From Escherichia coli (GTDB lineage Bacteria > Pseudomonadota > Gammaproteobacteria > Enterobacterales > Enterobacteriaceae), in assembly GCF_050920415.1 (NCBI RefSeq), contig NZ_CP169309.1: a DNA stretch of 64,000 bases; one strand, 5' to 3'. The position numbers were made by a program. The first letter of the stretch is position 1; each line of letters starts with the position of its first letter. Positions 30,301 to 33,300 of this stretch are shown here, in pieces.

Positions 30301-33300
30301 TATCAGGCGTTTTATTCTTACTCCGCGCCGCATATGCGGGTGATGCGTGATCTGATAAAGCAGCATCGTTCTCCCATGGAGCTGATGACGATGCTGCGGT
30401 GACGTGAGCTTAAACGGGCTGCCCCTGATGCGACATCCGCGTCGCCAGCGGTAGCCAGCACAGCACGATCAACAATCCCATTAAGGTCATCAACAACCCC
30501 AGGCTGCCCTGACCGGTTTGCGGCAACATCGCAGAGAGCGACGCAAGCACGCCGGAACCAATGTTTTGCAGACCGCCGACCAGCGCGCCCGCGGTGCCCG
30601 CCAGGAAGGGGAACGGTTCCATTGCGCCGCTGGTCGCCAGCGGAAACAGCATCCCGGCACCGAAAAAGAACAGCGCGGCAGGAACAAGCAATGTCCAGAC
30701 ATTCATCACGCCAAACCAGTCGGGGATCCACATCAGCAAGCCAGCCAGCAGGCAGCAGATAACCGACTGCCACATCAACGTCGGGAATCGTTTATTAGGA
30801 CGCCCGGCAAACCATGCTCCAAAAAATGCCGCCGGAATCGGCAGAATAAACAAAATACTGACCGTCATACTGCTCAGCCCTAATACCGCACCCATCAGCA
30901 CGCCGGAGCAGGCTTCAAAGGCGGCAATCCCGGCCAGACCGCCGATCAGCATCAGCAAATAACAGTTAAAACCGCTGTTACCGAAAAGTGTTTTATAACT
31001 GGTAAGCAGGCGCGTGCGCGGTGCATCTACCGGACGCGTTTCCGGCATCCAGCGCGCCATACTGAAGGTCACACCGGCACAAAGTACCAACAGGAAGAGA
31101 TAACAGGCGCGCCAGTTCCACATCGTATCCAGCAGACCGCCGATTAACGGTGCGAGCAACGGACTGACGAGAATCCCCATATTTAACAGGCTGTTAGCAT
31201 GACGCAACTGTGTCCGTTCATATAAATCACGCGGCAATGTACGCGCCATCACGCCGCCTACGCCGGTGCCCATCCCCTGCATCGCGCTGGCGGCAATCAA
31301 CACCGTCAAACTGGAGGTCGTGACCGCGACCAGCGTTGCCAGCATAAAAATGGACATTCCGACGAGGATCACCGGTCGGCGACCCACACGGTCGGATATC
31401 GGGCCATAAAACAGCTGCGAGACACCGTAAGTCAGCAGATAAGCGCCCATTACGCTTTGCACCGCCCCTTCACGAACGTTGAGATCGCGCGCCATATCGG
31501 CAATAGCTGGAATATAAATAGTTTGCGCCATCTGACCGACGGCCACGAGTAATACCAACATCAATAACAAATTGACGTTTCTATGCCTTTTCATTATCAC
31601 GGATGCTTTTATAAAAATAATTAGAATAAGTCACTACGCATTCCCATAAATGCGGGAGAGGAATCTATCACATTGATGAATGTTAGCCAGATATACGCCA
31701 GGAATGGGGAATTGTTTAGCGGCAGAATATGTAAACAAAAGCGGCAATAAATGTTGCCGGGAGGGATGGTAGGTCGGATAAGATGCGTCAGCATCGCATC
31801 CGACACCAACCCACACGCTAAATATAAAAGGGGAGCGGTTACCCGCTCCCCTTTGGTGCGACTTGAATCTGAATTACTTCAGGTATTTCAGAACAGCATC
31901 AAGCAGTTGCAGTGCTGCAACAATGAGTTTGAGGATAAGAATGGCGATATCCACCAGGCTCATACGCGTCTCCTGTGGTTCAGGAGCACTGCCAGCTGAC
32001 GTACCTTTCCGCTGCCTGTTGCCAGCTGTTGTGCACGCGGTATCTCAAGGAGAAACGTTGTGCTTGTTGACATAACACAGTGTGCTCACGCGGGGTTAAG
32101 GCGCTGACGGCACCACCCGTTTCAGCCAGGACTTAGTGCGCCGGGTAACGATGCGGCCCCCGCATAACACATTGCGTACAGTGATATTATAGAAGTTTAC
32201 TGTATAAATAAACAGTAATATTTAGACAAAACGTAAACTGTGATCGATACTCAACTATGTACTAAATACGTCAAAATTCGTGCCGAAATTGCGCGTTCTG
32301 CGCGGAACACGTATACTTTCTGTGTTGACATAATACAGTGTGCTTTGCGGTTACCAGCCGTGGGCGGCTGACGAAACCTCGCTCCGGCGGGGTTTTTTAT
32401 TGCCTGCTTTTCAGTACAAAACGTGATCAACCCCTCAATTTTCCCTTGATGAAAAATTTTCCATTGTCTCCCCTGTAAACCTGTGCTTGTATAAATATTG
32501 TTAAACACAAAACCAACAAGGTCCCCAATGACTACTTCCGTGCTCAACGCAAAACTACTACCAACTGCGCCATCCGCCGCAGTGGTCGTCGTGCGTGTGG
32601 TGGTGGTCGTCGGCAATGCGCCGTAGGGACTGGAACAACACACGATTCCAAAACCCCGCCGGCGCAAACCGGGCGGGGTTTTTCGTTTAAGCACCTCCCG
32701 GAAAGTCGGCCCAGAAGAAAAGGACTGGAGCATGGCAAGTTCGGGCACATCATCGACACGTAAGCGCTTTACCGGCGCAGAATTTATCGTTCATTTCCTG
32801 GAACAGCAGGGCATTAAGATTGTGACGGGCATTCCGGGCGGTTCTATCCTGCCTGTTTACGACGCCTTAAGCCAAAGCACGCAAATCCGCCATATTCTGG
32901 CTCGCCATGAACAGGGCGCGGGGTTTATCGCTCAGGGAATGGCGCGTACCGACGGCAAACCGGCAGTCTGTATGGCCTGTAGCGGACCGGGTGCGACTAA
33001 CCTGGTGACCGCCATTGCCGATGCGCGACTGGACTCCATCCCGCTGATTTGCATCACCGGCCAGGTCCCTGCCTCAATGATCGGCACTGACGCCTTCCAG
33101 GAAGTGGACACCTACGGCATCTCTATCCCCATCACCAAACACAACTATCTGGTCAGACATATCGAAGAACTCCCGCAGGTCATGAGCGATGCCTTCCGTA
33201 TTGCGCAATCAGGCCGCCCTGGCCCGGTGTGGATAGACATTCCTAAGGATGTGCAAACGGCAGTTTTTGAGATTGAAGAACAGCCCGGTATGACAGAAAA

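What the first reader, a model, noticed from the sequence alone, without database searches (positions are those of the whole stretch)
31875..32399. tisB-istR type I toxin-antitoxin locus with a TisB N2S variant and a 21-nt direct repeat that gives antisense pairing
The 29-aa TisB peptide is intact but has Ser at position 2 where I recall Asn in K-12. The IstR-1 5' sequence GTTGACATAATACAGTGTGCT (32325-32345) recurs with one mismatch at 32067-32087 inside the divergent tisAB leader, which explains how the trans-encoded sRNA base-pairs with the toxin mRNA. A LexA box sits between the two promoters.
Basis: partly seen in the sequence, partly recalled or inferred. Interest (0 to 1): 0.35.

Follow-up and report, generated by a model that had tools for sequence, protein, structure and literature searches.

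The report
Ordinary E. coli tisB/istR toxin-antitoxin locus
This is the well-studied E. coli tisB/istR-1 SOS-induced toxin and small-RNA antitoxin locus, and its "N2S variant" of the toxin is the commonest and ancestral form, already published, so the finding is correct but ordinary.

Summary
The window is the first 64 kb of E. coli MFDS1022581 (NZ_CP169399.1). Between emrD/ysdE and ivbL-ilvBN lies a complete tisAB/istR locus. It has tisB (29 aa, 31874-31963, minus strand), the untranslated tisA ORF, a LexA box (32198-32217) and IstR (Rfam RF01400, 144.7 bits against a cut-off of 45). It matches at 20 of 21 positions, and none is expected by chance. Because the two genes are transcribed divergently, the repeat gives an IstR-1/tisAB RNA duplex, and the single mismatch is a U·G wobble.

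The tisAB leader is 100% identical to K-12, so the published mechanism applies by inference: LexA repression, 5' processing to +42, a ribosome standby site, IstR-1 competition and RNase III cleavage.

Ser2 is not unusual. The identical tisB coding sequence occurs in 3161 of 4358 E. coli genomes that carry tisB, against 1001 with the K-12 Asn allele. Ser2 is also present in 10 of the 12 other Enterobacteriaceae species examined that are not named E. coli. A 2024 paper already named TisB-N2S the dominant variant and tested it. The strain-specific changes are minor: an istR-2 -35 of TAGACA and three wobble substitutions in IstR-1 stem-loop 1. Already known; low interest.

The parts
31827..31854 (-). 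tisAB intrinsic terminator: a 12-bp GC-rich hairpin followed by a T-rich tail
   Evidence: A perfect inverted repeat, AAAGGGGAGCGG/CCGCTCCCCTTT, was found. The terminator scan also reports it. With a +1 near 32179 it gives a transcript of about 358 nt, against the published 359 nt (PMC2577331).
31874..31963 (-). tisB CDS: a 29-aa hydrophobic toxin, MSLVDIAILILKLIVAALQLLDAVLKYLK, with Ser2 (AGC)
   Evidence: The ORF is listed and annotated in RefSeq as WP_000060506.1 TisB. The identical CDS occurs in 3161 of 4358 E. coli genomes that carry tisB.
31969..31974 (-). tisB Shine-Dalgarno sequence AGGAGA
   Evidence: It was read from the sequence. It is the same hexamer listed as the tisB RBS and reported 100% conserved (PMC11264685 Table 1).
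31960..32073 (-). tisA ORF: 37 aa, reported untranslated. Its stop overlaps the tisB start (ATGA) and its AUG lies inside the IstR-1 target.
   Evidence: The ORF is listed and its nucleotide sequence is identical to MG1655. PMC2826370 describes it as untranslated.
32066..32086 (-). IstR-1 target and ribosome standby region in the tisAB 5' UTR, at about +94 to +114. It is copy 1 of the direct repeat.
   Evidence: The repeat was located. It is the best duplex partner for the IstR-1 5' end in the whole window, at -45.2 kcal/mol against -29.2 for the next unrelated site. Mean pairwise identity across the 15 loci (the window and 14 fetched) is 96% for this block, against 43% and 67% for its flanks.
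32186..32191 (-). tisAB promoter -10 (TATAAT). The inferred +1 is near 32179.
   Evidence: It was read from the sequence. It is the same hexamer as in PMC11264685 Table 1. The +1 is inferred from spacing and from the published transcript length of 359 nt.
32198..32217 (.). LexA operator (SOS box) TACTGTATAAATAAACAGTA. It covers the -35 position of the tisAB promoter and abuts the istR-2 -35.
   Evidence: It is the only match in the window and forms an inverted repeat. It is identical to MG1655. A box matching ..CTGT-N8-ACAG.. is present at the same place in all 14 other loci.
32223..32251 (+). istR-2 promoter: -35 TAGACA (MG1655 has TGGACA), a 17-nt spacer, and -10 GATACT
   Evidence: It is the only sigma-70-like hit in the promoter scan. 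The G>A difference at 32224 is shown. Table 1 of PMC11264685 gives TGGACA in 94.5% of loci.
32260..32398 (+). IstR-2, about 140 nt and LexA-controlled. It contains all of IstR-1. The 5' end is inferred.
   Evidence: Rfam RF01400 covers 32269-32398. The start is inferred from the position of the -10. The role is taken from PMC2826370.
32289..32317 (+). istR-1 promoter: TTGCGC, a 17-nt spacer, and TATACT. It is LexA-independent.
   Evidence: It was read from the sequence. Both hexamers are identical to those in PMC11264685 Table 1. PMC2826370 describes it as constitutive.
32324..32398 (+). IstR-1 antitoxin sRNA, 75 nt. It has a 12-nt single-stranded 5' tail, stem-loop 1 and a terminator hairpin. 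Nucleotides 1-21 (32324-32344) are copy 2 of the repeat, the antisense region.
   Evidence: It matches Rfam at 144.7 bits. The fold is -28.6 kcal/mol, with the same topology as the K-12 allele at -32.5. The repeat begins exactly 7 nt after the -10 in all 15 loci (the window and 14 fetched).

Best explanation
This is a complete, apparently functional copy of the E. coli tisAB/istR-1 type I toxin-antitoxin system.

LexA binds the box at 32198-32217. There it represses the minus-strand tisAB promoter and the plus-strand istR-2 promoter. DNA damage removes LexA, and a tisAB mRNA of about 359 nt is made. The full-length (+1) mRNA is translationally inert, because its 5' end folds back onto the standby region. 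Processing to +42 frees the region at about +94 to +114, where 30S subunits preload before moving roughly 90 nt downstream to the structured tisB ribosome binding site.

IstR-1 is made constitutively from its own promoter, beginning at 32324. Its first 21 nt pair with that same region through 20 Watson-Crick pairs and one U·G wobble. This excludes standby ribosomes and triggers RNase III cleavage at +106. When tisAB mRNA outnumbers IstR-1, the 29-aa TisB peptide inserts into the inner membrane, collapses the proton motive force and promotes persister formation.

Shown here: every sequence element, the complementarity, its conservation, and the identity of the leader to K-12. Inferred from K-12 experiments: transcription, processing, the standby mechanism, RNase III cleavage and toxicity.
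For: - **Family match.** Rfam istR matches end to end at 144.7 bits against a cut-off of 45.
- **Annotation and synteny.** tisB is annotated and sits in emrD-ysdE-tisB-ivbL-ilvB.
- **Identity to K-12.** The stretch 31960-32223 (tisA, the whole 5' UTR, the tisAB -10 and the LexA box) is 100% identical to MG1655.
- **Repeat.** It matches at 20 of 21 positions, with 0 expected by chance.
- **Best target.** The tisAB site is by far the best duplex for the IstR-1 5' end in 64 kb on both strands: -45.2 against -29.2 kcal/mol.
- **Other species.**
  - In 14 other species-representative loci (Escherichia, Citrobacter, Salmonella, Franconibacter), all with an Rfam istR hit, the same 21-nt block is present in both places, 248-258 bp apart.
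  - Across these loci and the window, 20-21 of 21 positions pair.
  - One position (nt 7) changed on both sides, A-U to G-C.
  - The target block is 96% conserved against 43% and 67% for its flanks, and it was not constrained by the search pattern.
- **Predicted folds.** The IstR-1 fold leaves nt 1-12 single-stranded. The predicted +1 fold pairs the mRNA 5' end with the target region.
- **Literature.** The mechanism is described in PMC4147584, PMC5668327, PMC2826370 and PMC2577331. TisB-N2S was shown to be toxic in PMC11264685.
Against: Nothing contradicts it.

The limits are these. No expression data exist for this strain. The covariation test is not significant, because the duplex hardly varies: 1 pair changed on both sides, and 96 of 500 shuffles reach the observed score. 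Six of the 14 other loci carry one true mismatch (A·C or C·A). The predicted difference in target accessibility between +1 and +42 is small: unpaired probability 0.39 against 0.48. The tisAB +1 and the IstR-2 5' end are inferred from promoter spacing, not mapped here.
Confidence: 0.95

Rival explanations
1. The antisense RNA works as in hok/sok. IstR-1 would block translation of the upstream tisA ORF, whose AUG lies inside the target. TisB synthesis would depend on translational coupling through the overlapping ATGA stop/start, not on a ribosome standby site.
For: The tisA start codon (32071-32073) lies inside the 21-nt target, and the tisA stop overlaps the tisB AUG at 31960-31963. The tisA ORF is kept in more than 99% of E. 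coli loci, with no explanation offered (PMC11264685).
Against: Published work on the identical K-12 leader reports that tisA is not translated. It also reports that ribosomes bind the single-stranded standby region of +42 mRNA in competition with IstR-1 (PMC4147584; PMC2826370; PMC5668327). No ribosome binding site for tisA is listed among the conserved elements.
Confidence: 0.04
2. The repeat is a chance match or a neutral relic of a local duplication, with no function. The Ser2 change marks an unusual or altered toxin in this strain.
For: Short extra similarities between the IstR-1 body and the tisAB leader (families D3 and D5) could suggest an old duplication.
Against: No such repeat appeared in 100 shuffles. 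The block is sharply bounded and conserved in both copies across four genera, while its flanks diverge. Similarity beyond the 21 nt is not significant: 11% of shuffles reach the observed score. Ser2 is the majority allele (3161 of 4358 against 1001). Ten of the 12 loci from species not named E. coli with a readable tisB have Ser2 and none has Asn.
Confidence: 0.01

Closest known systems
E. coli K-12 tisAB/istR-1 (istR-2) type I toxin-antitoxin locus (Vogel et al. 2004; Darfeuille et al. 2007, as cited in PMC4147584)
   Same: The genomic position, gene order, tisA, 5' UTR, Shine-Dalgarno sequence, tisAB -10, LexA box, istR-1 promoter hexamers and 21-nt antisense block are the same. The stretch 31960-32223 is 100% identical. 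The IstR fold topology is also the same.
   Different: There are 13 substitutions in 649 aligned bases.
- TisB has Ser2 instead of Asn2.
- The istR-2 -35 is TAGACA instead of TGGACA.
- Three further substitutions fall in the istR-2 and istR-1 promoter stretch, at 32234, 32260 and 32321.
- Three Watson-Crick to G·U changes lie in the 3' arm of IstR-1 stem-loop 1 (32361, 32362, 32367). They cost about 3.9 kcal/mol of predicted stability.
TisB-N2S, the 'dominant' E. coli TisB variant (PMC11264685, mSystems 2024)
   Same: The peptide is identical. That paper found Ser2 in 85% of loci and in B-lineage laboratory strains. It reported more toxicity than K-12 TisB at low induction and no difference in ciprofloxacin persistence. 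Here the identical CDS occurs in 72.5% of genomes that carry tisB.
   Different: Nothing differs at the protein level. This strain combines the peptide with the minority (about 5%) istR-2 -35 variant.
Other divergently encoded E. coli type I systems with 5' UTR targets (zorO/orzO, shoB/ohsC, dinQ/agrB)
   Same: All have a small hydrophobic toxin and a divergently transcribed sRNA that pairs with a short stretch of the long 5' UTR. All need 5' processing for translation, and zorO uses a standby site (PMC5668327; PMC4147584).
   Different: The sequences and loci are different. Only tisB and dinQ are under LexA control, and dinQ does not use a standby site.

Membership tests
tisB/istR-1 type I toxin-antitoxin system | A 29-aa hydrophobic TisB ORF | tested here: met
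   ORF 31874-31963 is RefSeq WP_000060506.1 'type I toxin-antitoxin system toxin TisB'. It matches K-12 TisB at 28 of 29 residues.
tisB/istR-1 type I toxin-antitoxin system | An IstR sRNA gene that matches the curated covariance model (Rfam RF01400) above its gathering score | tested here: met
   The match covers 32269-32398 on the plus strand at 144.7 bits against 45, E = 2.9e-31, over model positions 1-130 of 130.
tisB/istR-1 type I toxin-antitoxin system | Divergent toxin and antitoxin genes in the emrD-ilvB intergenic region | tested here: met
   The order is emrD, ysdE, tisB (minus strand), IstR (plus strand), ivbL, ilvB. MG1655 has the same order.
tisB/istR-1 type I toxin-antitoxin system | About 21 nt of complementarity between the IstR-1 5' end and the tisAB 5' UTR, roughly 100 nt upstream of the tisB ribosome binding site | tested here: met
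   The block 32324-32344 pairs with 32066-32086 through 20 Watson-Crick pairs and 1 U·G. The target ends 92 nt upstream of the Shine-Dalgarno sequence at 31974. The duplex is the best in the window.
tisB/istR-1 type I toxin-antitoxin system | A LexA operator controlling tisAB (and istR-2) | tested here: met
   TACTGTATAAATAAACAGTA at 32198-32217 is identical to the MG1655 box. Only the sequence was tested, not binding.
tisB/istR-1 type I toxin-antitoxin system | A separate, constitutive istR-1 promoter | tested here: met
   TTGCGC-17-TATACT at 32289-32317 is identical to the published hexamers. Promoter activity cannot be tested here.
tisB/istR-1 type I toxin-antitoxin system | An inert +1 mRNA, an active +42 mRNA with an open standby site, and RNase III cleavage at +106 after IstR-1 binds | not testable with these tools
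   The leader is 100% identical to K-12, so the published results should transfer. The predicted +1 fold does pair the 5' end with the target region, but the predicted gain in accessibility at +42 is small.
tisB/istR-1 type I toxin-antitoxin system | TisB toxicity (membrane depolarisation) and its neutralisation by IstR-1 | not testable with these tools
   This is published for K-12 TisB and for the identical N2S peptide (PMC11264685; PMC4147584). It has not been measured in this strain.

The most novel reading that the evidence does not exclude
This strain combines a weakened IstR-1 stem-loop 1 with a minority istR-2 -35. The stem-loop has three G·U wobbles; its 3' arm sequence (CCGTGGGCGGC) recurs in E. 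whittamii and Escherichia sp. E1V33, and the exact 75-nt IstR-1 sequence was found in no other of 5426 E. coli genomes. The -35 is TAGACA. Together these could measurably change antitoxin stability, pairing kinetics or the IstR-2/IstR-1 balance. That would shift the threshold at which SOS induction produces TisB-dependent persisters.
Probability: 0.05. Interest if true: 0.2.

Novelty: already known. Interest (0 to 1): 0.05.

Why it matters
It matters little beyond correct annotation. The locus is the textbook SOS-induced persister toxin system, and this copy carries the consensus toxin. IstR is not annotated in the RefSeq record, so the region would look like empty intergenic DNA to an annotation-based scan.

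The cross-species comparison adds two small points. Ser2 is the ancestral TisB state, and K-12 Asn2 is the derived one. The central U·G wobble in the IstR-1/tisAB duplex is seen only in the Escherichia loci; three of the nine non-Escherichia loci (two Citrobacter and S. diarizonae) pair perfectly, and the other six carry a single wobble or mismatch at a different position.

Tried and rejected
1. **Duplication origin.** I tested whether the IstR-1 gene and the tisAB leader are a diverged duplication beyond the 21-nt block, as repeat families D3 and D5 hinted. Local alignment of the remainders scores 16, against 13.0 ± 2.0 for shuffles, and 11% of shuffles score as high. This is not supported.
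2. **Covariation in the duplex.** I ran a formal covariation test of the intermolecular duplex on 15 loci. The duplex has too little variation. One pair changed on both sides, and 96 of 500 shuffles reach the observed score. The test is inconclusive, so conservation rather than covariation carries the argument.
3. **Covariation in IstR-1.** The consensus fold of IstR-1 across species has no pair changed on both sides. Only the lower and upper parts of stem-loop 1 and the terminator are conserved.
4. **A private IstR-1 allele.** I asked whether the three IstR-1 substitutions are a private oddity or a sequencing error. The exact 75-nt allele is found only in the source genome among 5426. But each state recurs in other Escherichia species, and the G at 32367 is the majority state across species. 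This is ordinary polymorphism.
5. **Full-length duplex prediction.** The full-length IstR-1 by tisAB duplexfold (-78.4 kcal/mol) ignores intramolecular structure. I did not take it as evidence for pairing beyond about 21-27 nt.
6. **Third repeat copy.** A third 12-nt copy of part of the repeat lies at 32163-32174. It is too short to distinguish from chance. It falls in the 5' segment that the predicted +1 fold pairs with the target region.
7. **Searches not run.** No large protein-database search was run, because the E. coli genome collection and one DNA-pattern scan answered the allele question.
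Full report
**Where the window comes from.** The stretch 31800-32450 matches E. coli strain MFDS1022581 (NZ_CP169399.1) at 100% identity and at the same coordinates. It matches 4150 other complete E. coli chromosomes at 95-99% over at least 80% of its length. RefSeq annotates the neighbourhood as yidH-yidG-yidF, emrD (minus strand), ysdE, tisB (minus strand), ivbL, ilvB and ilvN. MG1655 has the same order. IstR is not annotated in either record.

**Checking the observation.**
- **TisB.** The ORF list gives a 29-aa ORF at 31874-31963 on the minus strand, MSLVDIAILILKLIVAALQLLDAVLKYLK. The pairwise alignment with MG1655 shows one difference in this CDS, at 31959: AGC (Ser) here and AAC (Asn) in K-12.
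- **Repeat.** The 21-mer GTTGACATAATACAGTGTGCT lies at 32324-32344. It recurs with one mismatch at 32066-32086. No other match at up to 3 mismatches occurs on either strand of the 64 kb, and none occurred in 100 shuffles.
- **LexA box.** TACTGTATAAATAAACAGTA lies at 32198-32217. It is unique in the window and identical to the MG1655 box.

**Anatomy of the locus.** Rfam's istR model (RF01400) matches 32269-32398 on the plus strand over its whole length, at 144.7 bits against a cut-off of 45. I read the promoter elements from the sequence and checked them against Table 1 of PMC11264685.

| Element | Position | Note |
|---|---|---|
| tisAB -10, TATAAT | 32191->32186, minus strand | same as published |
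| tisB Shine-Dalgarno, AGGAGA | 31974->31969 | same as published |
| istR-2 -35, TAGACA | 32223-32228 | MG1655 and 94.5% of loci have TGGACA |
| istR-2 -10, GATACT | 32246-32251 | this pair is the only hit of the promoter scan |
| istR-1 -35, TTGCGC | 32289-32294 | same as published |
| istR-1 -10, TATACT | 32312-32317 | places the IstR-1 5' end at G 32324, the first base of the repeat |

The tisA ORF (37 aa, 31960-32073) is intact. Its AUG lies inside the IstR-1 target, and its stop overlaps the tisB AUG. A perfect 12-bp hairpin at 31827-31854, followed by a T-rich tail, terminates tisAB. With a +1 near 32179, the transcript is about 358 nt. This agrees with the published 359 nt (PMC2577331).

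The LexA box therefore sits between the tisAB -10 and the istR-2 -35, over the tisAB -35 position. The istR-1 promoter is a separate element 72 nt further downstream. It is reported to be LexA-independent (PMC2826370).

**The pairing.** tisAB is transcribed from the minus strand and IstR from the plus strand, so the direct DNA repeat makes the two RNAs complementary. The one DNA mismatch is T in istR at 32334 against C in the target at 32076. In RNA it becomes a U·G wobble at IstR-1 nt 11 and tisAB +104. The duplex is therefore continuous over 21 positions.

I scanned the first 30 nt of IstR-1 against the whole window on both strands. Apart from the gene's own opposite strand, the tisAB site is the best partner at -45.2 kcal/mol. 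The next unrelated site reaches -29.2. IstR-1 folds into a 12-nt single-stranded 5' tail, stem-loop 1 and a terminator hairpin. Half of the antisense stretch is thus free to start pairing.

In the predicted fold of the +1 mRNA, the 5' end (nt 3-22) pairs with nt 85-105, which includes part of the target. This fits the published idea of an inhibitory 5' structure. The predicted gain in accessibility after removal of 41 nt is modest, however: mean unpaired probability rises from 0.39 to 0.48.

**Related loci.** I made one DNA-pattern scan of species-representative genomes. It was anchored on IstR positions that Rfam shows as conserved, and it left 13 of the 21 antisense positions free. It returned 14 loci:
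- five from Escherichia (two records named E. coli, Escherichia sp. E1V33, E. whittamii);
- six from Citrobacter or close to it, including a record mislabelled Chryseobacterium;
- two Salmonella enterica subspecies;
- an Enterobacteriaceae MAG;
- Franconibacter helveticus.

All 14 have an Rfam istR hit above threshold, at 66.7-149.7 bits. In every one the 21-nt block occurs twice as a direct repeat, 248-258 bp apart, with 0 or 1 mismatch. The next-best upstream match has 7-11 mismatches.

The block's edges are sharp, and the flanks diverge at once. Mean pairwise identity is 96% for the target block, against 43% and 67% for its flanks. The target side was not constrained by the search pattern. 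Position 7 changed on both sides (A-U to G-C) in four loci. Six loci have one true mismatch. The Escherichia loci and S. arizonae have one wobble each.

The formal covariation count is not significant, because so little varies: 1 pair changed on both sides, and 96 of 500 shuffles reach the observed score. All 14 loci keep a LexA-type box in the same place. Thirteen of them have a readable 29-aa TisB.

**Ser2.** The identical tisB CDS is present in 3161 of the 4358 complete E. coli genomes that carry tisB (72.5%), including O157:H7 and B-lineage strains. The K-12 CDS is present in 1001 (23%).

Among the 13 other loci with a readable tisB, residue 2 is Ser in eleven and Gly in two, and never Asn. 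Twelve of these 13 come from species not named E. coli, and ten of those twelve have Ser. Ser2 is therefore ancestral, and K-12 Asn2 is the derived state.

This has been published. [quoted passage not shown] It found Ser2 in 85% of loci. It built tisB-N2S and found it more toxic than K-12 TisB at low induction, equally toxic at high induction, and no different in ciprofloxacin persistence.

**What is particular to this strain.** Against MG1655 there are 13 substitutions in 649 aligned bases. The stretch 31960-32223, from the tisB start through the whole leader to the LexA box, is 100% identical. The differences that touch named elements are:
- the Ser2 codon;
- G>A in the istR-2 -35 (32224);
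- changes at 32234, at 32260 (near the inferred IstR-2 start) and at 32321 (between the istR-1 -10 and +1);
- three changes in the 3' arm of IstR-1 stem-loop 1 (32361 C>T, 32362 A>G, 32367 A>G).

Each of the three stem-loop changes converts a Watson-Crick pair into a G·U pair. The predicted fold is unchanged, and the energy goes from -32.5 to -28.6 kcal/mol.

The exact 75-nt IstR-1 sequence is found only in the source genome among 5426 E. coli genomes. The 3' arm of its stem-loop 1 (CCGTGGGCGGC) is nonetheless the same as in E. whittamii and Escherichia sp. E1V33. The G at 32367 is the majority state across species. This is ordinary polymorphism at structurally tolerant positions.

**Mechanism.** Every element is present, and the tisAB leader is identical to K-12. 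The best explanation is therefore the published one:
1. LexA represses tisAB and istR-2.
2. SOS induction yields the inert +1 mRNA.
3. Processing to +42 opens a ribosome standby site.
4. Constitutive IstR-1 pairs with that site, blocks standby ribosomes and triggers RNase III cleavage.
5. Excess tisAB mRNA gives TisB, which depolarises the inner membrane and promotes persisters.

These steps are described in PMC4147584, PMC5668327 and PMC2826370. The sequence-level steps are shown here. Transcription, processing, competition, cleavage and toxicity are inferred from K-12 work and from the published N2S test.

The main rival is hok/sok-like control through tisA translation. The tisA AUG inside the target and the ATGA overlap with tisB suggest it. 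Published evidence that tisA is not translated contradicts it.

**Verdict.** The only claimed oddity, N2S, is the consensus and ancestral allele and is already in the literature. The finding is already known and of low interest.

Noticed in passing
L004 (NZ_CP025318.1, E. coli FORC_042) 901-1088: This strain has a 12-nt in-frame deletion inside tisB, giving a 25-aa product. Its tisA is annotated as frameshifted.
   Followed up: partly
L020 (NZ_CP116409.1, E. coli HH97) 1299-1633; E. coli genomes counts: About 1068 of 5426 complete E. coli genomes have no tisB at all. In HH97 the ysdE-ivbL gap is 333 bp, against 777 bp in the window, so the whole tisAB/istR module is missing. PMC11264685 mentions copy-number variation.
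   Followed up: partly
L011 (CACSKA010000004.1, 'Chryseobacterium sp. 18061') 1708-1836 and upstream: A record named Chryseobacterium carries an enterobacterial tisB/istR locus. It is almost identical to that of Citrobacter sp. 18056 (L018) from the same study. The assembly is probably mislabelled or contaminated.
   Followed up: no
window 32334 and 32076 (IstR-1 nt 11 / tisAB about +104): The window and all five other Escherichia loci have a U·G wobble at the centre of the duplex, two bases from the published RNase III site (+106). Two Citrobacter loci and S. diarizonae have a perfect 21 of 21. The other non-Escherichia loci carry a single wobble or mismatch at a different position.
   Followed up: partly
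window 32528-32626: The IvbL leader peptide has Val5 (MTTSVLNAK...), where MG1655 has Met5. RefSeq gives it a different accession from the K-12 peptide.
   Followed up: partly
window 32135-32154 and 31894-31909 (minus strand): Two stretches of tisAB RNA are intact here: the published 20-nt stretch antisense to uxaA and the 16-nt stretch antisense to dinD (PMC2577331). Their partners are not in the window.
   Followed up: partly
window 31772-31810: A REP-type palindrome lies between ysdE and the tisAB terminator. It gives weak sub-threshold hits to naRNA4 on both strands. PMC2577331 reports a REP element at this place.
   Followed up: no
window 32163-32174: A third 12-nt partial copy of the repeat (CATAACACATTG, 11 of 12) lies near the 5' end of the tisAB mRNA. 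In the predicted +1 fold this 5' segment pairs with the IstR-1 target region. It is too short to distinguish from chance.
   Followed up: partly
L003 (NZ_CP038386.1, E. coli O55:H7 DEC5D) LexA box region: This strain has a LexA box variant, TGCTGTATAAATAAACAGTA, with TACTG changed to TGCTG. It also has a T>C change immediately 5' of the target block. It belongs to the roughly 6% of loci without the MG1655 box.
   Followed up: no
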